The notes: generated by a model not told the origin, from the sequence alone. Shown: positions 37,113 to 56,541, counted from the first letter of the stretch. The stretch is 64,000 nucleotides of DNA from Synechococcus sp. UW140 (GCA_943371295.1 CALRUG020000001.1:7677-71676), one strand, 5' to 3'. Translations and numbers: made by a program.

Positions 37113-37117
37113 CAAGC

Positions 37118-37148
37118 AAAAAATCCCGCACATAGTGCGGGATTTTTT
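37118..37148 (+). terminator. tRNA-Leu terminator
   Basis: AAAAAATCCCGCAC...GTGCGGGATTTTTT. Confidence 0.85.
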
Positions 37149-37435: not shown

Positions 37436-37472
37436 AGGGGGCAGTTCTGTAGAATAAAAATGATAATTAAAA

Positions 37473-39446: not shown

Positions 39447-40629
39447 TGTTCATCAAAGGAAACAAGAATACGAGATTGCAATAACTGATTTAGTTGCAAA
39501 CAGAATATTTGTATTGAAACAATCACTATCTCATTTAAATGGGGTGCCTGTTGATTTTACTACAGGGAGTTTTACTAGCTTTAAAGCAGTTACTAGACAA
39601 ATAGTGAATATTGTTGGTAATGTTATAAATATTTCAAAAGGCCATCAAGTTTATATTAATGAAATAAATAATTACCGTTCTAACCCTAATAACTTAGGCA
39701 ATATAAATATAGCCAATCTTATTCAGCTATGTGACTATTTATTGGCAAACAATGAGCAACAATTACGCAATCTTCTTGTGGAGGATGCAGTTAATTTAAT
39801 TAATCTTAATTCTGATATTTTAAATAATCATGGCCTCAATACGCAGCTAAATATTGAAATTATTAAGCTAGCATTTAATTACCAGAAATACGATGAAATC
39901 GCCAAGGAAATTAGAATATATTTTAGAGTAAATAATTTTACTAAGTTTTGCTCTTATTGCAATGCAGAACCAGTAACACACCAGACTAACTTTGTTGGCC
40001 AAGTTGTTAGATCTTATGAACTGGATCACTTTTATGATAAATCAAGGCATCCTCTTTTGGCCTATAGTTTATTTAATTTGGTTCCAAGTGATCACCATTG
40101 TAATGTTACGAATAAATCTACAACTGAATTTACCGATCAATACCATTTAAACCCACATCATATGGGCTATGCCGAACAATTCAGTTTTATCCCAATTGGC
40201 ATATCTACTGCCTTTGATGTAAACAAAATTGAAACTATTATTTTAGAGGCACAGGGTACATCCTTATACAAACAGATCAATGGACATAATCAATCAAATG
40301 AAGAACAAGGAAATTTGGGGAATTTAAATGTATTTAGAATCAGATCTAAATATTCAGACAAGCTGCATCTAGCCAGTACATTACTAAAACGCTTACATAA
40401 TGAGAATACTTACTTTAAACACTTAAAGAAATATTTGAAAAATCTTGATGGGATTGATAGAAAAAAAAACTATATAAAATGGTATGAAAAGGAATTAGAT
40501 GTTCAATTCAATTACATAGATTTTAACAATAAAGCATTTTCGAAGTTTTCCCGTGATATACATGATTATTATTTTCAGAATAATAAAACAAGATGGAATA
40601 GATATATTCTTGAATTAATAAACACTTAG
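39424..40629 (+). CDS. HNH endonuclease, PtuB-like, with long N-terminal extension
   Basis: CSYCN...LDHFYDKSRHPLLAYSLFNLVPSDHHCN; overlaps the ATPase stop (coupled). Confidence 0.82.
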   Translation: MIKIQIDNVHQRKQEYEIAITDLVANRIFVLKQSLSHLNGVPVDFTTGSFTSFKAVTRQIVNIVGNVINISKGHQVYINEINNYRSNPNNLGNINIANLIQLCDYLLANNEQQLRNLLVEDAVNLINLNSDILNNHGLNTQLNIEIIKLAFNYQKYDEIAKEIRIYFRVNNFTKFCSYCNAEPVTHQTNFVGQVVRSYELDHFYDKSRHPLLAYSLFNLVPSDHHCNVTNKSTTEFTDQYHLNPHHMGYAEQFSFIPIGISTAFDVNKIETIILEAQGTSLYKQINGHNQSNEEQGNLGNLNVFRIRSKYSDKLHLASTLLKRLHNENTYFKHLKKYLKNLDGIDRKKNYIKWYEKELDVQFNYIDFNNKAFSKFSRDIHDYYFQNNKTRWNRYILELINT

Positions 40630-40954
40630 TAAAGTGTCATTTACAAGACCAAATGAATAAGTCAGGCACGTTTCCAAAACACAGAGAAGACACATTTAAA
40701 GAAACTTTGCAAAAAAACCTGCTTTGTGTCAACATACAGTCAACAGATTAAGGTGATAAACATATCCAATTTATAAATCATTGGTATCAAGCACAAACAT
40801 CCGACAATAGGTTTTGTGAAATTGGGGCATGACCATAAAGTATTTATCGTAAGTACTTGCCCATGAAATGCATTTGTGGACACAAGCGTCTAAAGAATTT
40901 AAAGCTGAACAAAGTTCAGGGCATAGAATAAACTCTATACCATAATAAGCAGTA

Positions 40955-41065
40955 AATTATTTCATAAAATAATGATTTAGTTATAACTTACTTGGCTTAC
41001 CTATTCAACCCCAATTGTTACTTATTGTTAGTTTTTAAATGGTTCTTTATTTTATGTCTAGGAAT
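40955..41065 (+). repeat. Diverged ~110 bp repeat, copy 2 (upstream of the HEPN gene)
   Basis: Same block order and near-identical spacing as 37321-37435. Confidence 0.8.
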
Positions 41066-41124
41066 GCGTAATAAAGAGTTAAAAATGAATTCAAACTGAA
41101 ACACCCAAAAACTTAAAATATTTT

Positions 41125-42453
41125 ATGACACAATCGTACATTTTTGAAATACTAGCAATAGATAAAAATGGACAAACTAGTATCACAACAGGTGAATCAT
41201 TGGTATATGGGCTACTTTTCAGTGAATCACTATGGAAAAATAAAGAAGTTATAAAAATCTCTGATACCCAAAAAATAGTAGATAAGGAACAACAATTAGA
41301 ACTTAAATTTCAATCTGTTGATACAAGTTCGACATTAAATGATCTAATTGAAGCGGCATTTGTAATAAGAATAAAAGGAGAAAACTATACCCAATTAGAA
41401 ATATTTAGATATAATTTCCTTGTTCATCTAAGAAGAAAATTAAATTTTACTAACATAAGAATATTAAGAGATGATATTTCAACAAAAATTTCAAATGAAA
41501 TTTATCCATTAATTAATAAAGTGGAGAATTTACTAAGAAGATATTTAGTGAAGTTTTTCACCCAAAAGATTGGAGTTGATTGGTGGGAAGTAACAGCCCC
41601 TAGATTATTCACAGATAAACTAAATTCAAGAAAAGGGAATGAAAAAATATTTAGCAATGTTGTGGACACTGATGTTACTTTAATTGATTTTGACGATTTA
41701 GGCGAACTAATTTATAAACAAACAACTGGTTTTAATAAACAAGAAAATATTATATCGAGAGTAATGAACTCAAATACTGTTGATGAATTAAATATTTTGA
41801 AACAAGAATTACAAGGCAACTATACCAAATATTTCAAGGAAGCTTTTCAAGATAATAATTTCGAGAAGAAATGGAAAAGCCTATTTGAAATACGGAATAA
41901 AGTTGCACATAATAATTTGTTCATACACAATGACTTGGAAACGGCTATTCAACTCACTAAAGATTTAACAGAAATTATAAATTCAGCTGAATCTAGAATC
42001 GACGAATTCAAATTCAGCATTGAAGATCAAGAAGCTTTAAGACAAGCAACAATTGATGCTTATAAAGTAGCGGAAAATGAAATAGAAAATAATGAGAAAA
42101 CTTTGGAGCAGTTAGGAGTTAAAGTTGTAGGAAAAATTGAATTACCAAATGATGAATTTCAAAATAAAAATCAACTATTAATTATTACACAAGAGGATTT
42201 ACTTGAAGAATTAAATATTGCTGAAAGCAGAATTAATGATAGAAGTTATTTACCTTATGTTCCATTAAAATCATTTGTAACAAAAATATTAGGGAATAAA
42301 GGTTACTCCTATGGCCCTTCATATTCTTTAATAAATATTTTAAAAGAGAAAGGAATTATAGAAATATTTGATCCAGTTGATGTTAAATTAATGAATACAA
42401 TGGAATTTAATAATGGAGTCATTCCAAAGGGAATAAGAATAACAAGAAATTAA
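41125..42453 (+). CDS. HEPN-domain protein (R-x4-H), Swt1-like core with unknown N- and C-terminal domains
   Basis: ENLLRRYL...WW helix; TLIDFDDLGELI; catalytic-type IRNKVAHN. Confidence 0.78.
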   Translation: MTQSYIFEILAIDKNGQTSITTGESLVYGLLFSESLWKNKEVIKISDTQKIVDKEQQLELKFQSVDTSSTLNDLIEAAFVIRIKGENYTQLEIFRYNFLVHLRRKLNFTNIRILRDDISTKISNEIYPLINKVENLLRRYLVKFFTQKIGVDWWEVTAPRLFTDKLNSRKGNEKIFSNVVDTDVTLIDFDDLGELIYKQTTGFNKQENIISRVMNSNTVDELNILKQELQGNYTKYFKEAFQDNNFEKKWKSLFEIRNKVAHNNLFIHNDLETAIQLTKDLTEIINSAESRIDEFKFSIEDQEALRQATIDAYKVAENEIENNEKTLEQLGVKVVGKIELPNDEFQNKNQLLIITQEDLLEELNIAESRINDRSYLPYVPLKSFVTKILGNKGYSYGPSYSLINILKEKGIIEIFDPVDVKLMNTMEFNNGVIPKGIRITRN

Positions 42454-42578
42454 AATGAATGATTTTTAATATAAACATCCAAAATTTAGAATTAAAAGTA
42501 ATTGTTTAATCTAAAAAATTAATTTCAATCTAATTGAACTCTTTGATTTAAATAAACTAAAAAAATCAGATAAAAAGA

Positions 42579-44519
42579 ATGGACCCCTCAACTACCTCTA
42601 AAGATTTAAGGCTTAATAATGTCATCCAAGAAATTTATACTGGAGAGTATCAACTTCCCGAATTTCAAAGAGATTATATTTGGAAAGATGCAAATGTAAA
42701 AGGATTATTTGAATCTGTTTTACTTGGCCATCCAATTGGTTCTATTTTGCTTTTAGAATTGAATAAAGAAAATCCATTACTCGCATGGGTTAATTTTAGT
42801 GAAATAATCCCCCCAGAACAAAGACAATTTGAATATAATGGAACAGATAAAGTTCCTCCAAGGTTTTTAGTTTTAGACGGTCAGCAAAGACTAACATCAC
42901 TTAGTAGACTAACTAATGGCACATCAGAGAAAATTTGGTATTTAAATTTAAAGACTATTAAAGAAAGTTGGGAAAAAAATAATTGCCCAGAATCAGAAAA
43001 AGAACTCAAAGAATGGATTGAATTGGGATTAGATATTACAAGTGCACTTTCTAAACAAAATAAAACTGCAGACCAATTAAAAGATTTAAGAGGCAAAAAC
43101 CGAAAAATGCCTTTAACACTTTTATCAGAAAAGACAAGATTTACAACTATCTTAAATGAAGTTAGAGATGAGATTAATCAGACAGTAACAGAAAAGAATT
43201 ATGAAATAAAAAATCATACGAAATTAAAAATTAAAAAAAGTAAAAACGAGTTACAAGAAATAGTTAATGAAAGTTCCATTTGGCTTAAATTTTTGTCAGC
43301 GCCGATAAACCGTCTATTTGATAACTATTTTAATTATAACATGCCATCTGTAATTGTTTCAGAAAAAATGGGAATAACAGGTGTATGTAAAGTATTCACT
43401 AAAATTAATACTTCAGGTATCGCTTTAGGAGCATTTGATTTATTAGTAGCTGTAATGTACCCTAAAGATATACGCATAAAGCAAATGTTTGATGAAGCAA
43501 TTGATAAGTACCCTTTGATAAAAGTATTAGATGAAATTTCAAAAAGATACTTATTACAAACTATAGCATTAATGGCCGGAATTTCACCAAAAACAGCTTC
43601 TTTACCCGAACTGATAAAACCAAAACATATAGAAAATTTTTGGGATACGGCTTGTGAAGCCTTGGAAGAGGCATGTAATCAAATTGATTTAAACTGTGGA
43701 TCTGCTTTACAAAAAGGAACAGATAAATTTTTAGTATATTCCCCATTAGTAGCAAGTGTTGCTTGTATATTAAAAGAATTTCCAATAAACATAAAAGATG
43801 GAAGATTAAAATTACTTAGACAACATAAATTAAAAGCTTGGTATTACGGTTCTGGGGTGGCTGACAGGTACAGTGATGGAACTGATGCCAAACAAAATCA
43901 AGATATTAATGAAATGAGGTTATGGTTTAGTTCGGAAAACATGGAAACAAATATTCCAACATGGTTAAAAGAACTTTGGAGTGATTTTAACTCTTCAAAA
44001 AATGCATCATTAGGAAAAGCAATCATTTCCATGATAAACTTTAAGGAACCTAAAGATTTTTATGAAGATAAACCAGTAGGGCCTGCTTCGGTGGTACCGT
44101 GCGACTTGCATCACATTTTCCCCAAAGCTGCACTCCGAGAACAAATAATGGCAAAAAGACAAATAAATGATAAGGGTAAAGCAGAAAAAATTATTAAATC
44201 GGAATTTTCAGTAGATTCTATTTTAAACCAAACGTGGATTTTTTCAGATACTAATCGAAAAATTATCGCCGACAAATTACCATCTATATATTTAGAAGAA
44301 ATAATTACTCAATACGGAGGAAAAACATCAGGGAAAAAGAAATTATTAGAAATCATGCAAAGTCATTGTATAAATGCTGAGGCAGTAGAAGCATTACTAA
44401 AGGACGATTACGAAACCTTTATACTTGAAAGAAAAAAATCAATAATTTCAGAATTTAAAACAACAGGTTTTGTTCAAAATTTAATTGATCAAAAACCAAA
44501 TGACATTGATGATGAATAG
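42579..44519 (+). CDS. DUF262 (ParB/Srx-like NTPase) + C-terminal His-Me/DUF1524-like nuclease, GmrSD/SspE family
   Basis: YQLPEFQRDYIW; HPIGSILL; LVLDGQQRLTSL; F.KINTSG..L; C-terminal DLHHIFPK...SILNQT...TNRKI..K.PS.YL. Confidence 0.88.
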   Translation: MDPSTTSKDLRLNNVIQEIYTGEYQLPEFQRDYIWKDANVKGLFESVLLGHPIGSILLLELNKENPLLAWVNFSEIIPPEQRQFEYNGTDKVPPRFLVLDGQQRLTSLSRLTNGTSEKIWYLNLKTIKESWEKNNCPESEKELKEWIELGLDITSALSKQNKTADQLKDLRGKNRKMPLTLLSEKTRFTTILNEVRDEINQTVTEKNYEIKNHTKLKIKKSKNELQEIVNESSIWLKFLSAPINRLFDNYFNYNMPSVIVSEKMGITGVCKVFTKINTSGIALGAFDLLVAVMYPKDIRIKQMFDEAIDKYPLIKVLDEISKRYLLQTIALMAGISPKTASLPELIKPKHIENFWDTACEALEEACNQIDLNCGSALQKGTDKFLVYSPLVASVACILKEFPINIKDGRLKLLRQHKLKAWYYGSGVADRYSDGTDAKQNQDINEMRLWFSSENMETNIPTWLKELWSDFNSSKNASLGKAIISMINFKEPKDFYEDKPVGPASVVPCDLHHIFPKAALREQIMAKRQINDKGKAEKIIKSEFSVDSILNQTWIFSDTNRKIIADKLPSIYLEEIITQYGGKTSGKKKLLEIMQSHCINAEAVEALLKDDYETFILERKKSIISEFKTTGFVQNLIDQKPNDIDDE

Positions 44520-44737
44520 GGAACCAATAAACTAATTAGTTAATACAAAATATTTTGACCCTGAAATACTTAGGGGAAAAAGACTCATCTATAAACTAAA
44601 GAGCTAATTACTTGACAATATCTTACAAATCCAAATTGGAAGTTTGCAAATATTAAAATATTTGAATAGTAATATTTCACAAAAAGAATATTTTCTCTAC
44701 CAACAAAATCTATTTTTTCTAACCAAAGAAATACTTT

Positions 44738-44769
44738 AAGTCTTAATAAAACCAAAAGTATTAAGACTT
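44738..44769. promoter_or_regulatory. Perfect 11 bp inverted repeat, candidate operator for the XRE/C-protein
   Basis: AAGTCTTAATA-N10-TATTAAGACTT, ~130 bp upstream of the regulator ATG. Confidence 0.45.
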
Positions 44770-44901
44770 TATTTTAATAACTAAATCCATATCTGAATTT
44801 ATATACAAAATCAGTAACCGCATAAATTGTTAATAATAATCTTAAAATATAGATTGATTTATTAAATAATGTCTATATTTTTGGATTTAAATGTCCAAAA
44901 A

Positions 44902-45213
44902 ATGAAGTCCAACTATACATTACTAACAGGTGACATCATAAGGCAAATAAGAGAGACCAAACAACTTCCATTAAGAAAAATAGCTGCAATACTTGACATT
45001 GATACTTCTTATTATAGCAAGATTGAACGTAATATGAAAAAAGCAACAAAAGAGCAAATCCAACAACTAGAATTCTTTTTTGAGTTAAAGAAAAACACAT
45101 TAATGATACCATATTTAAGTGAAAGAATCTATTTAGAAATATCGGATGAAGATTGTGCGGAACAAGTATTAAAAGTTGCAGAAAAAAAAGTTAAATACAA
45201 AAAAAGGAAATAA
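44902..45213 (+). CDS. XRE-family HTH regulator (controller-protein-like) leading the R-M operon
   Basis: IRQIRETKQLPLRKIAAILDIDTSYYSKIERN HTH; 5 nt from the first MTase. Confidence 0.85.
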   Translation: MKSNYTLLTGDIIRQIRETKQLPLRKIAAILDIDTSYYSKIERNMKKATKEQIQQLEFFFELKKNTLMIPYLSERIYLEISDEDCAEQVLKVAEKKVKYKKRK

Positions 45214-45218
45214 ATAAA

Positions 45219-46289
45219 ATGCAGAAAAAATTTAAGGTCATAGATTTATTTTCAGGCTGTGGAGGGTTCTCTTTTGGTTTTGAATCAGCAGGTTTTCATG
45301 TAATATTGGGTGTTGACAATGACAAAGCAGCATTAGAAACATTTAAAGCCAATCACAACAATTCAAAAACATTACTTGCTGACCTACACGAAGACCAAGC
45401 AATTGAGAATATAATTAACGAGGTAAAAGGTCATAAAATAGATGTAATAATAGCAGGTCCCCCTTGTCAAGGTTTTTCACTAACAGGTGCAAGGCAAAAA
45501 GATGATGACCGCAATAAATTATTTTACTCCGTATTTAAACTTGCAAAAAGATTAAAACCACAAGCGGTTATTATTGAAAATGTTCCGGGACTTGCAACTC
45601 TTTATAATGGTCAAGCAAAAGAAGCTATACTTGATGAATTTAAAAAAATGAAGTTAGCATCAAATTTCAAAGTACTATATGCACCTGATTTTGAAGTTCC
45701 ACAAATAAGAAAAAGAATATTTTTTGTTGGACTTAATTCAAAAATTGGAACATTTGAATTTCCAGATAAAGTTTTACCGCCAGAAAAGTATAATACAACA
45801 TCAATTGCAATTTCTGATTTACCGTCAAGAGAAGCTGAATTCGGTTATGAAGAAGATAAATATGATAAGCCACCTAAAAATGAATATCAAAAGAAAATGA
45901 GAAATGGTGCTAAAAAATTATTTAATCATGTAGCAACCAAACATACAGAACATGTCATCAATGTTATCGCTCAGGTTCCAGAGGGCGGTAATCATAAAGA
46001 TTTACCCGAAGGAGTTGGTGATAGTAGAAAATTTAATGAAGCTTGGACTAGATATCATAGCAATAAACCCTCAAAAACAATAGATACAGGTCATAGAAAT
46101 CATTTTCATTATAAATACAACAGAGTTCCAACTGTACGAGAAAATGCAAGACTACAATCCTTCCCAGATAATTTCATTTTTACTGGTTCAAGAACTCAAC
46201 AGAATAAACAAGTCGGAAATGCTGTACCACCGCTACTAGGCTTTCATATAGCAAAGCAGTTATTAAAATACTTAAATAAAAAATCATGA
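45219..46289 (+). CDS. DNA (cytosine-5) methyltransferase 1
   Basis: Motif I DLFSGCGG; motif IV GPPCQGFS; VI ENV; VIII QIRKR; IX-X RENARLQSFPD...GNAVPP. Confidence 0.96.
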   Translation: MQKKFKVIDLFSGCGGFSFGFESAGFHVILGVDNDKAALETFKANHNNSKTLLADLHEDQAIENIINEVKGHKIDVIIAGPPCQGFSLTGARQKDDDRNKLFYSVFKLAKRLKPQAVIIENVPGLATLYNGQAKEAILDEFKKMKLASNFKVLYAPDFEVPQIRKRIFFVGLNSKIGTFEFPDKVLPPEKYNTTSIAISDLPSREAEFGYEEDKYDKPPKNEYQKKMRNGAKKLFNHVATKHTEHVINVIAQVPEGGNHKDLPEGVGDSRKFNEAWTRYHSNKPSKTIDTGHRNHFHYKYNRVPTVRENARLQSFPDNFIFTGSRTQQNKQVGNAVPPLLGFHIAKQLLKYLNKKS

Positions 46290-47521
46290 ATATAAAGCTC
46301 AAAACAATTGATTTATTTGCAGGCTGTGGCGGGCTATCTGATGGATTTGAACAAACTCAATTATATGAAACACTTGCTTGTGTTGAGTGGGAAAAAGAAC
46401 CATGTAATACACTTGTAAATCGCTTGCAGAATAAATGGGGAATTAAAAAAGCGAATGAAATAGTTTTACATTTTGATATTCAAAGAATTGATGAATTAAT
46501 AAATGGATGGGATAATGATTTATTGTATGGTTCAAATCAGGGTCTGAAAAAAATCATCAATAAAAAAAAGGGAATTGATGTAGTTATAGGAGGTCCTCCT
46601 TGCCAAGCTTATTCTATTGCGGGAAGAATTCGGGATGAGAATGGCATGAACGATGACTATAGAAACTATCTTTTTGAGAGCTACTTAAAAGTTGTTGAAG
46701 AATTCAAACCTAAAGCATTTATTTTTGAGAATGTTCCTGGCATGTTAAGCGCAAAGCCTGGAGGATTATCTATAGTTGATAGAATCACGAAAGCAATTTT
46801 CAATAAAGGTTACGAAATAACTAATAACTTAAGAGACAAAGCCTTAATTGATTGTACTAAATATGGGGTTCCTCAGGCTAGGAAAAGAATGGTAATTTTA
46901 GGAGTAAATAGAGAATTAATAAAGGAACCCCCTCAAAATGCATTAAACTATTTCTATGATGTAATCTTCCCAATTTATCAGTCAAAAAAAATATCAACGG
47001 TTAAAGATGCACTTTTTGATCTTCCTAAACTACACCCACTTGGAGAACCAATAAAAATTGGGAATAAAAAATACTCCCATTCATTCGACAAATTCAAAAT
47101 TAGGAATCATGAACCTCGTATGCATAACAGAAGAGATGTAGAAACATTTGGCCTTTTAACGAGAGACATACAATCAGGTCAAAACAAGTATTCATCTGCT
47201 GAATCATTGAAAAACTTATATTATGAAATAACAGGGAAAAAATCAAACATTCACAAATACCACGTTTTAAAATGGAATAAACCAAGCAATACAATCCCTG
47301 CTCATCTTTATAAAGATGGCTTAAGGCATATTCACCCAGATCCTGAACAATCAAGGAGTATAACAGTTCGAGAGGCAGCAAGGCTTCAATCTTTTGATGA
47401 TGATTTTGAATTTTTAGGAAGTGTGTCAGATCAATACAAAATGGTAGGAAATGCAGTACCCCCAAAATTTGCAAAAGCAATTGGCTTTGCACTAAATGAT
47501 TTCATTAATAAATTTTACTAG
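46286..47521 (+). CDS. DNA (cytosine-5) methyltransferase 2
   Basis: DLFAGCGG; GGPPCQAYS; FENVPG; PQARKR; REAARLQSF...GNAVPP. Confidence 0.96.
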   Translation: MNIKLKTIDLFAGCGGLSDGFEQTQLYETLACVEWEKEPCNTLVNRLQNKWGIKKANEIVLHFDIQRIDELINGWDNDLLYGSNQGLKKIINKKKGIDVVIGGPPCQAYSIAGRIRDENGMNDDYRNYLFESYLKVVEEFKPKAFIFENVPGMLSAKPGGLSIVDRITKAIFNKGYEITNNLRDKALIDCTKYGVPQARKRMVILGVNRELIKEPPQNALNYFYDVIFPIYQSKKISTVKDALFDLPKLHPLGEPIKIGNKKYSHSFDKFKIRNHEPRMHNRRDVETFGLLTRDIQSGQNKYSSAESLKNLYYEITGKKSNIHKYHVLKWNKPSNTIPAHLYKDGLRHIHPDPEQSRSITVREAARLQSFDDDFEFLGSVSDQYKMVGNAVPPKFAKAIGFALNDFINKFY

Positions 47522-47522
47522 A

Positions 47523-48491
47523 ATGCTTTTTACAGAAAACCTAGAAGAAATAATCTTTAACAGACATCAACTTTTTCAAACTGATGAATTTATAGTTGTT
47601 TCTGGTTATCTGGGACCAAAACCTGTACAAAGACTACATACACTTCCATTTAATACTAGAGTAATATATGGCATGTATGGATCTGATGGAATACAAACTA
47701 ATTTACATGATGCTTTAATCAAGATCCAAAATCAATTTAATAACATAAACATATTCTACTCAGATTTACCTGTACACTCAAAATGCTATGTTTGGAGAAA
47801 TAATGGTCAAATTATTCACGCACTTGTAGGTTCTGCAAATTTCTCTACAAATGGCCTTACAACACCATTTAGAGAAATCCTTGCTGAGACAACTTTTGAT
47901 ACGTTTAAGCCTTTAAATGATTATATCAATCGGATACTTCAAAATTCTTATTCTTGTTTAGAAATTGTTGTAGTAGAAAAACAAGGCATTACTAATGAGG
48001 ATAATGAATGTAAAATGTCCCTTTTAATGGATGATGGTCAAACACATAATGCAAGTGGATTGAATTGGGGATATATGGCAAATGGTCAACCTGCAGAAAA
48101 ACGGGGAATAAATGATGCTTGCATACCGATTAGAATTGAACATTTAAGAATATTCCCAGATTTATTTCCGCAAAAACAAATCTACCCTATACAAGAAGAT
48201 GGAAGAGGAAGGGCCCAGAGACATAATGATGCGATTGAAATTTTATGGGACGACGGAATGAGTATGGAAGGATTGTTAGAAGGATCGCAACCGTTAGACA
48301 CCATACTATATCCTAAACAAATTAGTTCTTTCCCCTCAAAAAGTCAAATGGGTGAGTATTTAAGAAATAGAATCGGGGTCCCTTTAGGCCAACCTGTAAG
48401 GAGATTTCACTTGGATAAATACGGCAGGACTGATATTTCTGTTTCAAAAATTGGGGATGGAATTTATAAATTTGACTTTTCAGTAAAATAA
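47523..48491 (+). CDS. PLD-superfamily restriction endonuclease, NgoFVII/BfiI-like
   Basis: HSK..W...GSANFS PLD catalytic motif; C-terminal SGLNWG...IPI B3-like DNA-binding region. Start at ATG 47523, right after the MTase stop. Confidence 0.85.
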   Translation: MLFTENLEEIIFNRHQLFQTDEFIVVSGYLGPKPVQRLHTLPFNTRVIYGMYGSDGIQTNLHDALIKIQNQFNNINIFYSDLPVHSKCYVWRNNGQIIHALVGSANFSTNGLTTPFREILAETTFDTFKPLNDYINRILQNSYSCLEIVVVEKQGITNEDNECKMSLLMDDGQTHNASGLNWGYMANGQPAEKRGINDACIPIRIEHLRIFPDLFPQKQIYPIQEDGRGRAQRHNDAIEILWDDGMSMEGLLEGSQPLDTILYPKQISSFPSKSQMGEYLRNRIGVPLGQPVRRFHLDKYGRTDISVSKIGDGIYKFDFSVK

Positions 48492-48583
48492 AATGGTACC
48501 TAGCATATTTATATTTTGCTTAAATGATTAAAATATTTTAAAACTTACACAACTTTCAAAATTAATAATCACTTTCTCCCCCC

Positions 48584-49105
48584 TCACAACCTAATTTTAT
48601 ACACCCCAACCCCATTCCTCGGGATATCATTAATAATAAACTGTTCCCCCTCCTCCGCTTCCTCAATAAAACTAAAAGAAGACCAAGAACTAGGCAGCCC
48701 TTTAAAAAGCAACGTAAATTGAAGCGACTCATGGTGCCCATTGTATAAATGCTTCTCAGGCGCAATAGGAACACCAATAGCTTGTAACAAAGGCAGCCTA
48801 TCCTCAGCGTCATTACCCTTTAAATAAGTCTTAGGACTAATATTAATCCATCCACCTAAATTAAACCTAGGCTCAGCATAATGCGTGCAATGAATAATGG
48901 TTTGCTTTTCTACTTCAGGAACAGATACCCATTCCAATTGAACGATGGGTGAATTAGGTTTGATACAATAATCGTCCCCCACTAACTTCACTTCACCTTC
49001 CAACCCAAGAATACATTTATCCTTTATCTAAATAGGCGAATGCCCAAAACGCTTAATCATCGCCATTCGTATCGCACCTAAATAACTCTTCAAAAGCTTA
49101 TTCAT
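48584..49105 (-). pseudogene. Conserved-looking Bacteroidota hypothetical protein; in-frame TAG at 49028-49030 separates ATG 49105 from the body (or a short gene starting at TTG 49003)
   Basis: The minus frame reads MNKLLKSYLGAIRMAMIKRFGHSPI*IKDKCILGLEGEVK... continuously into the 139 aa ORF. Confidence 0.45.
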
Positions 49106-49111
49106 AATCAT

Positions 49112-49519
49112 TTATTTAGTTACTTTAATAACAGTTTCATCTAACACAATCTGATTAATAAAATCAATATTAGCCGGTATAAACAACACCAACGAGAATT
49201 CCGAAAAAGCCTGGATATAGTTCCCATTCACTTTACTAGACTTAGGAATCTGTAATACTTTTTTCACCAGGTTTGACTGATAATCAACATTCACCTGCAC
49301 TAAAGGAAAATCAAAAGACTGCTTTGAAAAATACTGAACCGTAGGGCTACTAAATACCAACGCAAGCGGTTTGGTAAAGTCTTTCTTTTTACGATAAGCC
49401 AAAGATTGGAAAATCTCTATTTCAGAGGAAGCCAGCTCACACTCAAGGGTAAAACTTTTTTTACGGTTTTTAACTACAACAGTTGTTGTTTCTGCAAAAG
49501 GGAATTTTAAATGCTTCAT
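49112..49519 (-). CDS. Divergent DUF192-like protein
   Basis: LECELASSEIEIFQSLAYRKK...LVFSSPTVQYFSKQSFDFPL aligns by eye to the DUF192 pattern VEIA.T..E...GLM.R...LF.F......FWMKNT..PL, but lacks several conserved residues. Confidence 0.5.
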   Translation of the reverse strand: MKHLKFPFAETTTVVVKNRKKSFTLECELASSEIEIFQSLAYRKKKDFTKPLALVFSSPTVQYFSKQSFDFPLVQVNVDYQSNLVKKVLQIPKSSKVNGNYIQAFSEFSLVLFIPANIDFINQIVLDETVIKVTK

Positions 49520-49675
49520 TGCGATTAGGTTTTAAAAGTTAATCGCACCAAGATGAAGAGGAGAAGCTTACAGCGCTTTATTTTGACTAAGTAGTCCTCA
49601 TCTCAAACACCACCGTGGACTCGCGTCTCGGTTGGTTTCTACTCACGTAGAATCTTGATGACAAAACAAAAGTAG
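49520..49675 (-). ncRNA. Putative structured 5' leader / ncRNA with two GNRA-capped hairpins
   Basis: TACTTTTG -7 box at 49667-49674; UUCUAC-GUGA-GUAGAA; long stem capped GAC-GCGA-GUC; GAGAUGA/UCAUCUU multistem; 8 bp stem abutting the AUG. Confidence 0.6.
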
Positions 49676-49739
49676 GAAAATAAACGATGTGAAGAATTAA
49701 GGGAAAGTTAAATCAAAGGGGGTGGCTGTGATCCCCCCG

Positions 49740-49769
49740 ATTACCATGGGGAGCAATTGTGGGGGATAT
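49740..49769. repeat. 30 bp direct repeat, copy 1
   Basis: ATTACCATGGGGAGCAATTGTGGGGGATAT; 29/30 identical to 51090-51119. Confidence 0.9.
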
Positions 49770-49877
49770 AGTGAAATTTAGAAATTAGTCTAATAATTGA
49801 GCCAATTAATACCCATAAATTTGGTTTCAAACAAGTGACTTCAAATATTTCAGTAACTTTAATACAAACATTAATGT

Positions 49878-50108
49878 ATGAAATACGGAGAAATTAGCAT
49901 TGACCCTGAAGTAATGAGTGGTGCTCCAGTATTTGCAGGAACCCGAGTTCAGATACAAACACTATTTGATTATATTGAAGGAGGTGAAGACTTAGCAGAG
50001 TTTCTAGACGACTTCCCTTCTGTTTCAAAAGAATCAGCTTTGGCAGTTTTAGAAATGGCAAAAAAATCGCTAACATCAGAGAAAATGCTTCATGAAAATT
50101 TTGCTTGA
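49878..50108 (+). CDS. DUF433 family antitoxin
   Basis: IDPEVMSGAPVFAGTRV...FLDDFPSV. Confidence 0.9.
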   Translation: MKYGEISIDPEVMSGAPVFAGTRVQIQTLFDYIEGGEDLAEFLDDFPSVSKESALAVLEMAKKSLTSEKMLHENFA

Positions 50109-50184
50109 CGAAAGTTTACCCAGAAAAATAAGACATGATTTTGGCAAAGATCATGATGTTTGGACTGTTCGAGATAAAGAATAG
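50092..50184 (+). pseudogene. Truncated DUF5615 (PIN-like) toxin
   Basis: MKILLDESLPRKIRHDFGKDHDVWTVRDKE*; typical N-terminus overlapping the DUF433 stop, ends after 30 aa. Confidence 0.8.
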
Positions 50185-50485
50185 ATTAGCTGCCAGTTAC
50201 TATAGCAGTATTAAAAGGGTCAGACAATAGATTGACTACACTACAAAAATTAATTCCACTTTTATTTCATAAGCTAAAAGAAGGAAATCTTCCCAATGTG
50301 ATAGAAATATTTTAACATGAGGATATTGATGAAAAATAGAGAAATCAGCCCCACTCCCCCTACACCCTATGTATCCAAACTTATTGATTGACTTCGAGCG
50401 TGGCAAAGAGAATTTTGATAACCTAATGGCCACATACGACCTAATAGAAACCTACTAGGAAAGAAAGAAGGATAAAAATTACATT

Positions 50486-50707
50486 TTATGCATTAGATGC
50501 ATCATTTGTTAAATCTATTTCTGTGTAATTAAAAATGGATACATCGTAATTCGCCAAAAGTTCCATAAAAGTCCTTTTAGTATATCCAGCAAGATCAGCA
50601 GCTTGACCTAAAGACAAATCTCCTTTTTCAAACAACTTTGCTGCTAAAAAAGTTTTAGCGTATCGCTCATCTAAGTCATCAGGTATTTGAAGTGTCAAAG
50701 TTTTCAT
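50486..50707 (-). CDS. UPF0175 family antitoxin
   Basis: LAAKLFEKGDLSLGQAADLAG...FMELL. Confidence 0.88.
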   Translation of the reverse strand: MKTLTLQIPDDLDERYAKTFLAAKLFEKGDLSLGQAADLAGYTKRTFMELLANYDVSIFNYTEIDLTNDASNA

Positions 50708-50931
50708 AATATAAATTTACAAATAGGGTCTTTAATGAATTCCTTCAAGTATACAAATATAGCCCTCAAAGATTCGGCAGTAACTGTTGGATAAGACTCA
50801 AGAATTTGTTTCTCAGTCCAACCAGCAGAAAATAATTCCAATACTAACTCTACAGAAATTCTAGTACCCTTTATGGTAGGTTTTCCAAGTAGAACTTGAT
50901 TATCAGAAACAATATGGTCTTGCCAATTCAT
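50704..50931 (-). CDS. DUF433 family antitoxin (second copy, C-terminus possibly rearranged)
   Basis: WQDHIVSD..VLLGKPTIKGTRISVELVLE...WTEKQILESYP. Confidence 0.88.
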   Translation of the reverse strand: MNWQDHIVSDNQVLLGKPTIKGTRISVELVLELFSAGWTEKQILESYPTVTAESLRAIFVYLKEFIKDPICKFIL

Positions 50932-51089
50932 AAAACAATTTACAAAATTTTAAAATTGCAACCACTAGACAAGATTAATACTTAAAAAAGATCATTCCGA
51001 CAAACTGAGCCACTTCCCAAATCCCAAAGCTCTAATCCCCCAACACACAAAGACCAATATTCCGGAAGCAATCAACAATGGAGTGTTTA

Positions 51090-51119
51090 ATTACCATGGG
51101 GTGCAATTGTGGGGGATAT
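51090..51119. repeat. 30 bp direct repeat, copy 2
   Basis: ATTACCATGGGGTGCAATTGTGGGGGATAT. Confidence 0.9.
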
Positions 51120-51284
51120 GAAAAAGAATAAACGTTATCTAACACGGTGGCTTTGATTCCCCCTACCCCTTAAGTACAAACACCTAATCTATTCCACCAA
51201 GCAATCCCTAGCTTCAAGCCTGAAAAAATAATTTTTCGAAAACTTCACATTTTGTGAACTTTTATTACATTTACAAATGAAACA

Positions 51285-51617
51285 ATGAAAATCAGGTTAG
51301 TCACACAACAATCCATTGAAGAATTCATTGAACAAAATGCTAATAGCTTGAATGGCTTTAGAACTTGGTTAACTCTTTTAAATTCTGCAAATTGGGAAGA
51401 ACCTTCGGACATGAAAGAAACATATAAAACGGCAGATTTATTAGGAAATGGGACTAATAGAGTGATTTTCAATATAGGGGGCAATAACTATAGAATGATA
51501 TGCAAATATCAATTCGGAGCTACGCAAGTTCATCTTTACATAAAGTGGATTGGCACACATTCCGATTACACAAAACTTTGTAAAAACAACAAACAATATA
51601 CCATTTCAACATACTAA
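51285..51617 (+). CDS. higB: HigB-family mRNA interferase toxin
   Basis: RVIFNIGGNNYRMI...YIKWIGTHSDY. Confidence 0.9.
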   Translation: MKIRLVTQQSIEEFIEQNANSLNGFRTWLTLLNSANWEEPSDMKETYKTADLLGNGTNRVIFNIGGNNYRMICKYQFGATQVHLYIKWIGTHSDYTKLCKNNKQYTISTY

Positions 51618-51627
51618 AATTCATCCC

Positions 51628-52077
51628 ATGACCCATCTACCCTATACCATCATCAAATCAAAGGCACAATACTATAAGTATTGTAATATTCTTGAAGCTT
51701 TGGTAGAAAGCAAAAAGAAAACCAAATCCATTCAGGATGAAATAGAACTACTCGAATTATTGATAGAAAAATATGATGCAGAGAATAGCAGCTTTACCAA
51801 TGCAGACCCTGTAGAGATTATCAAATCACTCATGACCGAACACAATATGAAAGCTGTAGACTTAGCCGAGCTTTTAAATGTGAGTGAAGGGCTGGTATCA
51901 GACATGCTGAAATATAAAAAAGGACTATCTAAAGAAACCATTCGAATTCTATCTCAAAAATTCAAAATCAGTCAGGAAGCATTGAATAAACCTTATGCAT
52001 TAAAACTAACTCCTCTTATCAAAATAAGAACCATAAAAAAACGACCCGCAGCCAGAAAAATAGCAAGGACTTTTTGA
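51628..52077 (+). CDS. higA: HigA-family HTH antitoxin
   Basis: ELLELLIEKYD; DPVEIIKSLMTEHNMKAVDLAELL...VSDMLKYKKGLS. Start at ATG 51628. Confidence 0.88.
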   Translation: MTHLPYTIIKSKAQYYKYCNILEALVESKKKTKSIQDEIELLELLIEKYDAENSSFTNADPVEIIKSLMTEHNMKAVDLAELLNVSEGLVSDMLKYKKGLSKETIRILSQKFKISQEALNKPYALKLTPLIKIRTIKKRPAARKIARTF

Positions 52078-53689: not shown

Positions 53690-55018
53690 CTAAACAAACC
53701 GATTAATCAAATTCTCCAAATACTCTTGCCTACCACTAATTACAGCAGGCTCCCCGGCTTGAATGGCATAACTACGTAAGTCTTCTAATACCAAATTCCC
53801 ATCCGCAAAATCCTTACCCCGGCCTTGATCAAATGACGCATAACGTTGCGTGCGGAAACTGCGATACTCAGATTGGTTCAATATTTTATCCGCAACAATT
53901 AATGCCCTGGCAAATGCATCCATACCACCAATATGCGCATAAAATAAATCAGCAGGGTCGGTACTATTTCGACGAATCTTCGCATCAAAATTAATTCCAC
54001 CACCCGCAAAACCATCGGCTTCTACAATCACCAACATGGCTTCCACCAATTCATTAATATTCGTAGGGAATTGATCGGTGTCCCAACCATTTTGATAATC
54101 TCCCCTATTCGCATCCATACTACCTAATAAACCAGCATCAGCAGCAACTTGTAACTCATGCTGAAAAGTGTGCCCAGCAAGGGTTGCGTGGTTCACTTCA
54201 ATATTCAATTTAAAATCATTTAACAAATCATACTGACGTAAAAAACCAATCACTGTTTCGCAATCGTAATCATACTGGTGTTTACTAGGCTCACAAGGTT
54301 TGGGCTCTATAAAAAATGTTCCCTTAAATCCATTCTTACGCGCATAGTCTTTGGCCATATGCAAGAAGCGCGCAAGATGATCTTTCTCGCGTTTCATATT
54401 GGTATTGAGCAAACTCATATACCCTTCTCTACCACCCCAAAAAACATAATTTTCTCCACCCAATGCAATGGTTGCATCTAATGCCGCTTTCACTTGTGCA
54501 CCTGCATGTGCAAGCACCTGAAAATCTGGATTCGTAGCAGCACCATTCATATACCTTCTGTTACTGAACAAATTAGCAGTACCCCAAAGCAATTTCACGC
54601 CACTGGCTTGTTGCTTCTCTTTAAAATAATCCGTAATAGCCCCTAAGCGACGTTCATTCTCATGGATATCATTGGTATAATCCACTGCATCCACATCATG
54701 AAAACAATAATATGGAACACCTAGTTTGGTAATAAATTCAAAAGCCGCGTCGGCTTTTTGCTTGGCTCTTTCAACTGCGTCTGATGTTTGATCCCAAGGA
54801 AATAAATGAGTGGGTTCACCAAACGGATCAGCACCACTACCACAGAAGCTATGCCAATAAGCGCAAGCAAAACGCATCCACTCTTTCATCGTTTTTCCAG
54901 CCACCACGCGACCTTCATCGTACCAACGAAACGCAAGCGGGTTATCACTCTCCAACCCTTCGTAATTTATTTTTCCAATTCCTTTGAAATATTCTTTTTG
55001 GCCAAGTAAAATAGACAT
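53690..55018 (-). CDS. xylA: Xylose isomerase
   Basis: RFACAYWH; FHDVD; WGGREGY; [14 protein letters not shown]; [12 protein letters not shown]; GWDTDQFP. Confidence 0.98.
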
Positions 55019-55062
55019 ATCGTTTTTTATTTTTTTGTTATTGTGGGATTATAGCTGTTGAA

Positions 55063-56541
55063 TTATTGAAGCTGTAGCTCCAACTGTTCCCTCCATCCAT
55101 GATAGCGTTCGTTATATGCTGCAATATGTTTGGGTTCAGTAACTGAAATAGAATGGCGATTGCTAAACGCATCTTGCGCATCGGAATAGATACCCGCACC
55201 AATGCCGGCACCCAGAGCTGCACCGATGCTTCCATCCCCCTCATAAAATTCTACTGCCACATCATTCACTGATGCAAATGCTTGTGTAAATACATCGCTT
55301 AAAAAAAGATTGGCTTTGCCTGCGCGAACAACCGACGGATTCATTCCATTCTCGCGCATGATATCAAATCCATACCGCATGGCAAAAGCGATGCCTTCTT
55401 GCACCGAACGAACCATATGCGCCGTATCGTGTAAATTAAAATCAAGCCCAGTAAATTGTCCACCTATTAATTGATTACCCAACATGCGTTCAGCTCCATT
55501 TCCAAAAGGCAATGCATATAATCCATTGGCGCCAATAGGCACCCTTGCCGCTAATTCATTCAATGTTGCATAACTATGTTGAGCACCAGTAATATTTTTC
55601 ATCCATCGGTTAAAAATGCCCGTGCCATTAATACAAAGCAGCACCCCAATACGAGGTTCTTCACTGCTATGGTTTACATGCGCAAAGCTGTTGATTCTAG
55701 ATTGTTGATCGTAAGCCAGTTTATTGTTGACTCCATAAATAACACCTGAAGTACCTGCTGTAGTAGCTACTTCACCTGGTTGCATTACTTGCAATGCCAA
55801 TGCATTATTGGGTTGATCACCCGCTTTGTAACTTACAGGTATACCCTTACGCATTTGTAAGCGTTCAGCTACTTGATTACTAATGGTACCATGATTGCTG
55901 AAAACCGGCTGTATAGAAGGAAAGAGGGAATTAGAGAATCCAAAATAATCTAGCACATCCCTAGAAATTTGCTGCGCTTTAAAGTCCCAGAAAATCCCTT
56001 CAGAAAGTGCAGAAACAGTAGTGGTTGTATTACGGGTTAATTTCATTGCAATAAAATCACCGGGTAACATCACTTGATGAATTTTTTCATAAACAGCTGG
56101 TTCATGTTGTTTCACCCAAGCCAGTTTACTGGCGGTAAAATTCCCAGGAGAGTTCAATAAATGTTCTAAACAACGCTTCGAGCCAATTGCTTCAAAAGCT
56201 TGATTACCTATTTCAACAGCCCTACTATCGCACCAAATAATGGCATTCCTCAAAACATTGCCATCTCGATCAACCAATACCAAACCATGCATTTGATAAG
56301 CAATACCGATAGCACCAATATCCTTAGGATCATAATTGCCCTTTGCATGGCATTTTAGAATCGCCTGCTGAACATATTCCCACCATTTATCGGGGCTTTG
56401 TTCGGCCCAACCTGCATGAAGTGCAATGATTTCTGCTTCAGTCTCCGGGTAAGTAGCAGACGATACAGATTGTTGCGTAGCTGCATCTACCACAGAAACT
56501 TTTACAGATGAAGTACCAATATCAATTCCTAATAAAAGCAT
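55063..56541 (-). CDS. xylB: Xylulokinase (FGGY family)
   Basis: GIDIGTSSVK; GIAYQMHG; WCDSRA; AGDQPNNA; GTSG; adjacent to xylA. Confidence 0.95.
   Translation of the reverse strand: MLLLGIDIGTSSVKVSVVDAATQQSVSSATYPETEAEIIALHAGWAEQSPDKWWEYVQQAILKCHAKGNYDPKDIGAIGIAYQMHGLVLVDRDGNVLRNAIIWCDSRAVEIGNQAFEAIGSKRCLEHLLNSPGNFTASKLAWVKQHEPAVYEKIHQVMLPGDFIAMKLTRNTTTTVSALSEGIFWDFKAQQISRDVLDYFGFSNSLFPSIQPVFSNHGTISNQVAERLQMRKGIPVSYKAGDQPNNALALQVMQPGEVATTAGTSGVIYGVNNKLAYDQQSRINSFAHVNHSSEEPRIGVLLCINGTGIFNRWMKNITGAQHSYATLNELAARVPIGANGLYALPFGNGAERMLGNQLIGGQFTGLDFNLHDTAHMVRSVQEGIAFAMRYGFDIMRENGMNPSVVRAGKANLFLSDVFTQAFASVNDVAVEFYEGDGSIGAALGAGIGAGIYSDAQDAFSNRHSISVTEPKHIAAYNERYHGWREQLELQLQ

What the first reader, a model, noticed from the sequence alone, without database searches (positions are those of the whole stretch)
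49520..49675. Promoter-anchored multi-stem RNA with two GNRA tetraloops: candidate new cis-regulatory RNA or ncRNA
On the minus strand, a consensus Bacteroidota -7 box (TACTTTTG, 49674-49667) is followed by four structured parts. (1) UUCUAC-GUGA-GUAGAA. (2) A long imperfect stem AAACCAACCG-A-GAC-GCGA-GUC-CA-CGGUGGUGUUU. (3) A multiloop closed by GAGAUGA(GGA)/(UCC..)UCAUCUU with inner GACU/AGUC and AAGC/GCUU hairpins. (4) An 8 bp stem UGCGAUUA/UAAUCGCA ending at the AUG, with the A/U-rich initiation region in its loop. Both tetraloops are GNRA only on the transcribed strand, and the segment is GC-rich within AT-rich surroundings, which argues for selection on RNA structure. I cannot assign it to a riboswitch or ribozyme I know. 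I recall similar leaders before genes of Bacteroidota mobile elements (unverified), so a single-stranded-DNA promoter/origin role is an alternative.
Basis: partly seen in the sequence, partly recalled or inferred. Interest (0 to 1): 0.8.

Follow-up and report, generated by a model that had tools for sequence, protein, structure and literature searches.

The report
Known SAM riboswitch, unusual downstream genes
The structured leader is an ordinary member of a known RNA family, the SAM-I/IV riboswitch, but it controls two small proteins of unknown function in a restriction-modification and toxin-antitoxin island rather than the usual methionine genes.

Summary
Rfam places window 49569-49666 (minus strand) in RF01725, the SAM-I/IV riboswitch: 58.9 bits against a gathering score of 41.1, over the full model. 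Reader stems 1 and 2 are P2 and P3, and GACU/AGUC is P4. Its "multiloop" is a ligand-free alternative pairing found only in this lineage.

The riboswitch heads the operon in 15 of 16 related loci, and 9 of 19 aptamer pairs show compensatory changes. A TAnnTTT[GA] box sits at a fixed distance upstream of P1.

In all nine distinct leaders, the 5' strand of P1 plus J1/2 can instead pair with a segment abutting a hairpin that ends at the AUG. This pairing covaries between lineages. There is no intrinsic terminator. I infer a translational OFF switch.

The downstream genes are the unusual part. ORF1 (135 aa) has a DUF192 fold and belongs to a tiny family. ORF2 is an orphan beta-sandwich that carries an in-frame stop codon here. 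The cassette lies in a low-GC island with restriction-modification, GmrSD and toxin-antitoxin genes, and similar contexts recur elsewhere. The function of both proteins is unknown.

The parts
49667..49674 (-). Bacteroidota-type -7 promoter box, TACTTTTG. It ends 5 nt before P1, so the transcript should start at about 49662.
   Evidence: Sequence. A TAnnTTT[GA] box starts at -13 relative to P1 in 9 of 15 homologous leaders, at -16 in 2 and at -12 in 1. No RNA or DNA contig laid on the region reaches upstream of 49663. Promoter activity itself is inferred.
49569..49666 (-). SAM-I/IV riboswitch aptamer (Rfam RF01725), full-length match.
   Evidence: cmscan gives 58.9 bits against a gathering score of 41.1, model positions 1-99 of 99, E 3.7e-7 for the window.
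49657..49661 (-). P1 5' strand, UCAUC. J1/2 (AAGA) follows at 49656-49653.
   Evidence: cmscan alignment. P1 pairs covary in homologues: UA/GC/AU and CG/UA.
49637..49652 (-). It has no internal loop.
   Evidence: All four consensus P2 pairs show compensatory changes.
49609..49636 (-).
   Evidence: The lower stem is invariant and the upper stem covaries (GAC/GUC, AGAG/CUCU, GAG/CUC, GUG/CAC).
49598..49602 (-). P1 3' strand, GAUGA. J3/1 (GUUUGA) precedes it at 49608-49603.
   Evidence: cmscan alignment and RNAalifold.
49585..49596 (-). P4 hairpin GACU-ACUU-AGUC, lying 3' of P1 as in SAM-IV.
   Evidence: cmscan alignment.
49569..49584 (-). 3' tail of the aptamer. GCGC at 49576-49573 is the candidate pseudoknot partner of the P3 loop.
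   Evidence: A 2-3 bp loop-tail complement sits at the same tail position in most homologues: GCG/CGC, ACA/UGU, CG/CG. This is suggestive only.
49546..49560 (-). Switching strand CUCUUCAUCUUGGUG. AUCUUGGUG pairs with the P1 5' strand plus J1/2 (CAUCAAGAU, 49660-49652). UCUUCAUCUU can pair with the P1 3' strand (this lineage only). CUUCAU (49558-49553) can pair with AUGAAG (49519-49514).
   Evidence: RNAduplex gives -10.9 kcal/mol, z -3.0. The same helix occurs in all 9 distinct leaders with compensatory changes, z -2.7 to -6.1. Folds with P1 forced are, and the lineage-specific helix is tested.
49520..49547 (-).
   Evidence: Every homologous leader has a hairpin of different sequence that ends 0-5 nt before the AUG.
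49112..49519 (-). ORF1, 135 aa. It is a divergent DUF192-fold protein and the regulated gene. The start codon is at 49519-49517.
   Evidence: The N-terminus MKHLxFPF is conserved in the family. The AF2 model has pLDDT 83. The Foldseek top hits are the DUF192 structures 3pjy and 3m7a, TM 0.64-0.71. No Pfam, NCBIfam or PADLOC family reaches significance.
48584..49111 (-). ORF2, the second gene of the operon, an orphan beta-sandwich. In this window it is interrupted by one in-frame TAG at 49030-49028. The conserved core lies downstream of that stop.
   Evidence: Translation and homologues. The AF2 model has pLDDT 67 and no significant PDB match.

Best explanation
Window 49666-49569 (minus strand) is a SAM-I/IV class riboswitch aptamer. 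It is transcribed from a Bacteroidota -7 promoter box that ends 5 nt upstream of P1. It controls a two-gene operon: ORF1, a DUF192-fold protein, and ORF2, a beta-sandwich protein.

Proposed mechanism, a translational OFF switch:

- At low SAM, P1 is open. Its 5' strand plus J1/2 (CAUCAAGAU) pairs with AUCUUGGUG just upstream of the pre-AUG hairpin. In this lineage the 3' strand of P1 can alternatively pair with UCUUCAUCUU. Either pairing ties up the switching strand and eats into the base of the hairpin, so the start codon stays accessible.
- When SAM binds, P1 closes and the switching strand is released. The hairpin UGCGAUUA/UAAUCGCA forms fully and is extended by CUUCAU/AUGAAG, which buries the AUG.

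What is shown: class membership, conservation and covariation of the aptamer, a conserved and covarying switch helix, a conserved pre-AUG hairpin, and the absence of an intrinsic terminator.

What is inferred: SAM as the ligand, the direction of regulation (OFF), and translation as the regulated step.

The biochemical function of the two regulated proteins is unknown. From their context I infer an accessory role tied to mobile restriction-modification and toxin-antitoxin islands rather than to methionine biosynthesis.
For: - Rfam RF01725 scores 58.9 bits against a gathering score of 41.1 over the full model.
- The same family scores above its gathering score at the head of the ORF1-homologue operon in 15 of 16 loci that hold enough upstream DNA.
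- RNAalifold recovers P1, P2 and P3, and 9 of 19 pairs are kept through double changes.
- The switch helix between the P1 5' strand plus J1/2 and the segment next to the hairpin is present in all 9 distinct leaders. It shows compensatory changes: CAUCAAGAU/AUCUUGGUG, CAUCAGGAA/UUCCUG-CUG, GCAUUUCGAG/CUUGAGAUGU. Its z-scores against shuffles are -2.7 to -6.1.
- Forcing P1 lowers, or leaves equal, the mean unpaired probability of positions -12 to +6 in 9 of 9 leaders. In the window it falls from 0.45 to 0.22, and CUUCAU pairs with AUGAAG.
- No terminator-like site lies in 48300-49900.
- The -7 box is conserved in position.
- Metatranscriptome contigs span the leader and ORF1 (49381-49608) and the aptamer (49572-49642).
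Against: - No ligand-binding or expression data exist for this RNA.
- The computed change in accessibility is small in several homologues: 0.25 to 0.24 and 0.29 to 0.28.
- In the unconstrained MFE folds the switch helix and most of the hairpin coexist, so the thermodynamic model does not cleanly separate an ON state from an OFF state.
- The pseudoknot expected for this class is only 2-3 bp here.
- The downstream genes have no recognisable link to SAM or methionine metabolism, which is atypical and leaves room for an altered ligand.
- The RNA-library contigs are unstranded assemblies from related strains and could include DNA carry-over.
Confidence: 0.8

Rival explanations
1. The RNA has the SAM-I/IV fold but has changed ligand, for example to SAH or another adenosyl or sulfur metabolite. 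This would explain why it controls genes outside methionine metabolism.
For: The downstream genes have no Met or SAM annotation. Other riboswitch classes are known to contain variants with altered specificity (established knowledge, not tested here). Further copies in relatives also precede non-metabolic genes such as an AAA_5 ATPase.
Against: All strongly conserved consensus positions are kept: CAUCAAGA, CCAACC, GGUGG, AGAUG-GG and CAAAA-AA. The score is well above the gathering score. No systematic departure from the core shows in the 13 aligned aptamers.
Confidence: 0.07
2. The riboswitch acts mainly on transcription, through Rho-dependent termination or mRNA decay that follows translational silencing or occurs independently of it. 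Direct occlusion of the start codon is not the main effect.
For: The predicted accessibility change is modest in several homologues. The hairpin persists in both modelled states.
Against: There is no intrinsic terminator. The hairpin is always placed 0-5 nt from the AUG and the switch strand always abuts it. That placement points to control of initiation.
Confidence: 0.1
3. One reading: a new class of cis-regulatory RNA or ncRNA, or a single-stranded-DNA promoter or origin of a mobile element.
For: The element lies in a mobile or defence-type island. In L011 an 18-nt direct repeat brackets the cassette.
Against: The full-length Rfam match accounts for stems 1, 2 and the GACU hairpin. The remainder is a conventional expression platform. 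No replication or relaxase gene appeared among the genes I annotated around it, and there are no viral relatives.
Confidence: 0.01
4. The element is a decaying relic that no longer regulates anything. The cassette is eroding in several genomes.
For: ORF2 carries an in-frame TAG in the window. ORF1 is internally deleted in L007 and L010 while the riboswitch remains. ORF1 is truncated in L015.
Against: ORF1 is intact here and 94% identical to the intact copy in L011. The aptamer, switch helix and hairpin are kept with compensatory changes across divergent lineages.
Confidence: 0.04

Closest known systems
SAM-I/IV variant riboswitch (Rfam RF01725; Weinberg et al. 2010, PMC2864571)
   Same: It matches the full covariance model above the gathering score. 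It has the P1-P2-P3 junction with J1/2 AAGA and the CCAACC/GGUGG core. P2 has no internal loop. P4 lies 3' of P1. It sits in a 5' leader on the strand of the downstream gene.
   Different: It controls a DUF192-fold protein and an orphan beta-sandwich protein in restriction-modification and toxin-antitoxin islands of Chitinophagaceae, not methionine or SAM genes. The expression platform has no Shine-Dalgarno sequence and works through a hairpin abutting the AUG, as expected in Bacteroidota. The pseudoknot is at most 2-3 bp.
SAM-IV riboswitch (RF00634) and SAM-I riboswitch (RF00162), same Rfam clan CL00012
   Same: They share the ligand-binding core architecture around P1, P3 and J1/2. SAM-IV also places P4 outside P1.
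   Different: According to PMC2864571, SAM-I and SAM-IV have an internal loop in P2, which is absent here. In the clan competition in cmscan, SAM-I/IV was kept as the best model.
DUF192 / COG1430 / UPF0127 proteins (PF02643; structures 3pjy, 3m7a)
   Same: The ORF1 model superposes on both structures with TM 0.64-0.71, Foldseek E 1.6e-5. Some distant family members reach the Pfam gathering score. Phage COG1430 proteins are the top BFVD matches.
   Different: The window protein itself matches no Pfam model. It has no signal peptide or membrane segment that I could see by eye. DUF192 has no known function, so the relationship gives no mechanism.

Membership tests
SAM-I/IV riboswitch (RF01725) | Score at or above Rfam's curated gathering score over the whole model | tested here: met
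   58.9 bits against 41.1, model positions 1-99 of 99, not truncated.
SAM-I/IV riboswitch (RF01725) | P1 closing a junction with P2 and P3, with conserved J1/2 and P3 core nucleotides | tested here: met
   UCAUC/GAUGA, AAGA and CCAACC...GGUGG are identical to the consensus. RNAalifold recovers P1, P2 and P3.
SAM-I/IV riboswitch (RF01725) | P2 without the internal loop that SAM-I and SAM-IV have | tested here: met
   P2 is six uninterrupted pairs, UUCUAC/GUAGAA. The feature is stated in PMC2864571.
SAM-I/IV riboswitch (RF01725) | An additional hairpin (P4) 3' of P1 | tested here: met
   GACU-ACUU-AGUC at 49596-49585 aligns to the model's last helix.
SAM-I/IV riboswitch (RF01725) | Pseudoknot between the P3 loop and the 3' tail (recalled from the SAM-IV literature, not read here) | tested here: inconclusive
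   Only a 2-3 bp complement sits at a fixed tail position, with apparent covariation GCG/CGC, ACA/UGU, CG/CG. This is too short to test.
SAM-I/IV riboswitch (RF01725) | Helices supported by compensatory changes among homologues | tested here: met
   9 of 19 consensus pairs have double changes that keep the pair, in 13 aptamers.
SAM-I/IV riboswitch (RF01725) | Selective binding of S-adenosylmethionine | not testable with these tools
   This needs in-line probing, ITC or equilibrium dialysis.
SAM-I/IV riboswitch (RF01725) | Typical, not defining: lies upstream of methionine or SAM metabolism or transport genes | tested here: not met
   ORF1 and ORF2 have no Pfam, NCBIfam or PADLOC family. ORF1 has a DUF192 fold.
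DUF192 (PF02643), for ORF1 | Match to the Pfam model at its gathering score | tested here: not met
   The window protein has no hit even at E<=10. Three of 23 family members hit weakly. More distant relatives P0064, P0081 and P0088 reach the gathering score.
DUF192 (PF02643), for ORF1 | The fold of the solved DUF192 structures | tested here: met
   Foldseek on 3pjy and 3m7a: E 1.6e-5 to 3.9e-5, TM 0.64-0.71, model pLDDT 83.

The most novel reading that the evidence does not exclude
The riboswitch serves as a sensor of SAM depletion for a mobile-island cassette. When SAM falls, through starvation or a phage SAM-degrading enzyme, the OFF switch opens and the DUF192-fold and beta-sandwich proteins are made. 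They might protect the host from its own SAM-dependent restriction-modification systems, which would leave the host's own DNA undermethylated. Alternatively they might act as a defence or abortive-infection effector. Either way, this would be a metabolite riboswitch recruited to genome-conflict functions.

The evidence does not exclude this, but it is circumstantial only:
- The cassette recurs beside C5 methyltransferase restriction-modification systems, Mrr and GmrSD nucleases, Abi and toxin-antitoxin genes and integrases.
- It keeps its place at the xylAB hotspot while the neighbouring restriction-modification system is swapped.
- Its genes decay often.
- Further SAM-I/IV copies precede an AAA_5 ATPase in a VWA cluster.
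Probability: 0.12. Interest if true: 0.8.

Novelty: new member of a known kind. Interest (0 to 1): 0.33.

Why it matters
The RNA itself adds nothing new.

The value lies in what it regulates. A SAM-responsive leader is tightly and repeatedly linked to a very small family of DUF192-fold proteins: 65 cluster representatives among 1.84 billion. This gives a first functional handle, regulation by SAM level, on a domain of unknown function. It also flags a cassette that travels with restriction-modification and toxin-antitoxin islands in freshwater Chitinophagaceae.

Gene associations of riboswitches have repeatedly pointed to new enzymes and transporters. Here the association points either to an unrecognised SAM-related activity or to SAM-gated control of an island function.

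The leaders also give a clean, covarying example of how a riboswitch expression platform is built in Bacteroidota, which do not use Shine-Dalgarno pairing.

Tried and rejected
- **New RNA class:** rejected by the Rfam match.
- **Single-stranded-DNA origin or promoter:** nothing supports it, and there are no relatives in IMG/VR.
- **Intrinsic terminator in the leader:** none found.
- **GNRA loops as a functional signature:** not conserved in homologues.
specific to this lineage.
- **Naming ORF1 by sequence:** Pfam, NCBIfam, PHROGs, PADLOC and PDB sequence searches gave nothing usable. A weak PADLOC 'E2' hit (E 0.011) and a PHROG of unknown function (E 0.0014) were ignored.
- **A SAM-hydrolase link:** a Foldseek match to SAM hydrolase MJ1651 (rank 34, TM 0.37, E 0.64) is too weak to use.
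- **Naming ORF2:** 9 homologues, pLDDT 67, no PDB match with E<0.001.
- **Tying the riboswitch to ORF2:** ORF2 homologues occur without ORF1 and without a riboswitch, so the link is to ORF1.
- **Literature:** searches for the SAM riboswitch together with defence islands or restriction-modification, and for COG1430 or UPF0127, found nothing. The 22 papers that mention DUF192 showed nothing on its function in their titles and abstracts. The first 200 supplementary files of Weinberg et al. 2010 mention neither DUF192 nor COG1430.
- **MAFFT alignment of whole leaders (A5):** it misaligned P2 and P3, so I did not use it for pair counts. I used aptamer-only RNAalifold and per-sequence duplex tests instead.
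- **STnc550:** the hit at 49710-49780 (13 bits against a gathering score of 48) is noise.

Full report
**1. What is in the sequence**

| Element | Coordinates |
|---|---|
| TACTTTTG box | 49674-49667 |
| UUCUAC-GUGA-GUAGAA | 49652-49637 |
| Long imperfect stem ACC..GAC-GCGA-GUC..GGU | 49636-49609 |
| GACU-ACUU-AGUC | 49596-49585 |
| UGCGAUUA-(12 nt)-UAAUCGCA | 49547-49520 |
| AUG of a 135-codon ORF | 49519-49517 (ORF ends at 49112) |

**2. Identity of the RNA**

A scan of the whole window against Rfam 15 at curated thresholds returns two hits. One is a tRNA at 37029-37112. The other is RF01725, the SAM-I/IV riboswitch, at 49666-49569 on the minus strand. It scores 58.9 bits against a gathering score of 41.1, with E 3.7e-7, and covers the complete model.

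The alignment assigns the parts as follows:
- P1 is UCAUC (49661-49657) paired with GAUGA (49602-49598).
- J1/2 is AAGA.
- P4 is the GACU/AGUC hairpin, lying 3' of P1.
- A 16-nt tail follows.

The class was described by Weinberg et al. 2010 as a SAM-I/SAM-IV variant that lacks the internal loop in P2 (PMC2864571). P2 here is six uninterrupted pairs.

**3. Comparative support**

ORF1 has a small set of homologues: 35 at E<=1e-3 in the 5.8-billion-protein index. I fetched genomic loci for these from GTDB genomes and from metagenome assemblies. RF01725 scores above its gathering score at the head of the operon in 15 of the 16 loci that hold enough upstream DNA. The exception, L002, has only 288 nt upstream. 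In some lineages a further small gene of 74, 107 or 151 aa sits between the riboswitch and the ORF1 homologue.

RNAalifold on 13 aptamers recovers P1, P2 and P3. Nine of 19 pairs are kept through changes on both sides.

The two GNRA loops are not conserved. A pseudoknot between the P3 loop and the tail can only be 2-3 bp, though it sits at a fixed position.

**4. Promoter**

A TAnnTTT[GA] box begins 13 nt before P1 in 9 of 15 leaders, 16 nt before in two and 12 nt before in one.

Assembled contigs from metatranscriptome libraries of related strains cover 49381-49608 (leader plus ORF1), 49572-49642 (aptamer) and 49252-49402. Nothing laid on the region reaches beyond 49663. This agrees with the promoter assignment but is weak evidence, because the contigs are unstranded and DNA carry-over is possible.

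**5. Expression platform**

No intrinsic terminator is found in 48300-49900.

In every one of nine distinct leaders, the 5' strand of P1 plus J1/2 has a 9-12 bp complement that lies directly 5' of, and overlaps by 2-6 nt, a hairpin that ends 0-5 nt before the AUG. The complement changes together with P1 and J1/2:

| Leaders | P1 5' strand + J1/2 | Complement |
|---|---|---|
| window | CAUCAAGAU | AUCUUGGUG |
| L013, L015 | CAUCAAGAA | UUCUUGAUG |
| L003 | CAUCAGGAA | UUCCUG-CUG |
| L006, L008 | GCAUUUCGAG | CUUGAGAUGU |

The duplex energies lie 2.7-6.1 standard deviations below shuffled controls.

The hairpins differ in sequence but keep their pairing and position.

Forcing P1, as a stand-in for bound SAM, lowers or leaves equal the mean unpaired probability of positions -12 to +6 in 9 of 9 leaders. 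In the window it falls from 0.45 to 0.22. There the released strand CUUCAU (49558-49553) pairs with AUGAAG and extends the hairpin over the start codon.

It is strong only in the window's lineage (-12.9 kcal/mol, reached by 3% of shuffles) and is no better than shuffles elsewhere. It is therefore a lineage-specific reinforcement of the ligand-free state, not part of the aptamer.

My reading is a translational OFF switch. The effect sizes are modest, and both the direction and the regulated step are inferences.

**6. The regulated genes**

*ORF1 (135 aa).* It matches no Pfam, NCBIfam or PADLOC family and no PDB sequence. An AlphaFold model built on 23 homologues (pLDDT 83) superposes on the two solved DUF192 structures, 3pjy and 3m7a, with E 1.6e-5 to 3.9e-5 and TM 0.64-0.71. 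It also superposes on phage COG1430 proteins.

A profile search of 1.84 billion cluster representatives finds only 65 relatives at E<=1e-3. A few of these reach the Pfam DUF192 threshold or are fused to DUF3293 or DUF7663. ORF1 is thus a rare, divergent, apparently cytoplasmic branch of DUF192, a family of unknown function. The papers that mention DUF192 showed nothing on its function in their titles and abstracts.

*ORF2.* It has 9 homologues. Its model is a beta-sandwich with pLDDT 67 and no significant structural match. In the window its full reading frame (49111-48584) carries one in-frame TAG at 49030-49028, where homologues have tyrosine. ORF2 homologues also occur without ORF1 and without a riboswitch. 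The riboswitch is therefore tied to ORF1.

**7. Genomic context**

The cassette lies in a low-GC stretch (27-34% against 41-43% in the flanks) that runs from the tRNA at 37029-37112 to about 52 kb. This stretch encodes:
- an AAA_15 ATPase
- a HEPN protein
- GmrSD
- a restriction-modification operon with a controller-type HTH protein, two C5 methyltransferases and an NgoFVII-type endonuclease, convergent with the cassette
- DUF433/UPF0175 pairs
- HipA

It ends at xylA and xylB.

A close relative, L011, has ORF1 at 94% identity and an aptamer and expression platform identical to the window's in the stretch read. It carries the cassette at the same xylAB-side position. There it sits next to HigB, a BglII-type endonuclease with a C5 methyltransferase, Mrr-nSTAND3 and an AAA_15 protein.

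Other loci place the cassette beside:
- AbiEii and PIN genes
- an AspBHI/Mrr nuclease and a large helicase
- the Vsr-AIPR-DUF4420-Z1 cluster
- integrases and a C5 methyltransferase
- a Panacea antitoxin and HipA
- a tRNA gene, directly, in L005

A few contexts look like housekeeping regions. No relative is found in IMG/VR viral contigs.

The cassette erodes often. ORF1 is internally deleted in L007 and L010 with the riboswitch still intact, and truncated in L015. In L011 an 18-nt direct repeat brackets the promoter, riboswitch, ORF1 and ORF2 exactly.

**8. Interpretation and limits**

The finding is a new instance of a known riboswitch class, not a new RNA. The riboswitch parts are well supported.

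The biology of the regulated proteins is open. They could carry an unrecognised SAM-related activity. Alternatively they could serve the island, for example by protecting the host from restriction when SAM is too low for methylation, or as a defence triggered by SAM depletion. I found no paper that links SAM riboswitches to defence or restriction-modification loci. The evidence here is association only, so I give that reading about 0.12.

The window most likely comes from a freshwater Sediminibacterium-like member of the Chitinophagaceae, judging from the best-matching genomes and the runs that hold the sequence.

Noticed in passing
window 49028-49030 (within ORF2 frame 48584-49111, minus strand): There is a single in-frame TAG where homologues P0039 and P0036 have tyrosine. 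The rest of ORF2 stays in frame and keeps its conserved core. ORF2 is either a recent pseudogene or is re-initiated at TTG 49003.
   Followed up: yes
window ~37100-52000: A low-GC island (27-34% against 41-43% in the flanks) begins at the tRNA gene 37029-37112 and ends before xylA and xylB (53690-56541). It holds AAA_15, HEPN_Swt1, GmrSD, a controller HTH protein with two C5 methyltransferases and an NgoFVII-type endonuclease, DUF433/UPF0175 pairs and HipA. Relatives L011 and L019 carry different cargo at the same xylAB position, so this is a hotspot.
   Followed up: partly
L009 2234-2332 (-) and L015 5366-5459 (+): These are second SAM-I/IV copies (69.1 and 60.7 bits). In L009 the copy sits between a 376-aa gene and a 505-aa AAA_5 ATPase inside a VWA-containing gene cluster. 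In L015 no ORF follows for about 535 nt. This is another unusual target for a SAM riboswitch.
   Followed up: partly
L007 5001-5253 (and L010): ORF1 is internally deleted, leaving only a 45-aa N-terminal piece and a 26-aa C-terminal piece. The riboswitch upstream is still intact (60.4 bits). A UPF0175/PIN toxin-antitoxin pair follows.
   Followed up: yes
L011 7774-7791 and 8880-8897: An 18-nt direct repeat, TAAGGG(G/T)TAGGGGGGATT (17 of 18 identical), brackets the promoter, riboswitch, ORF1 and ORF2 exactly. This suggests the cassette moves as a unit. The window keeps only a related GGGGGGATCACAGCC motif upstream (about 49740-49726).
   Followed up: partly
L019/L020 8001-8459: An ORF2 homologue stands alone, without ORF1 or a riboswitch, at the same xylB-xylA hotspot. 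It lies next to AbiEii/DUF6088 and an rve transposase.
   Followed up: partly
L021 (GCA_031407835.1) 1-10208: A distant ORF2 homologue (132 aa) follows a WYL-domain regulator. It sits beside an AAA_5 / DUF5682 / VWA_CoxE / DUF4132 cluster and a Cas4-like DUF2779 protein. No riboswitch is present.
   Followed up: no
proteins P0053, P0054, P0058 (distant ORF1 relatives): The ORF1-like domain is fused to DUF3293 (two proteins) or to DUF7663 (one protein). Both are domains of unknown function. I could not look at their genomic contexts.
   Followed up: no
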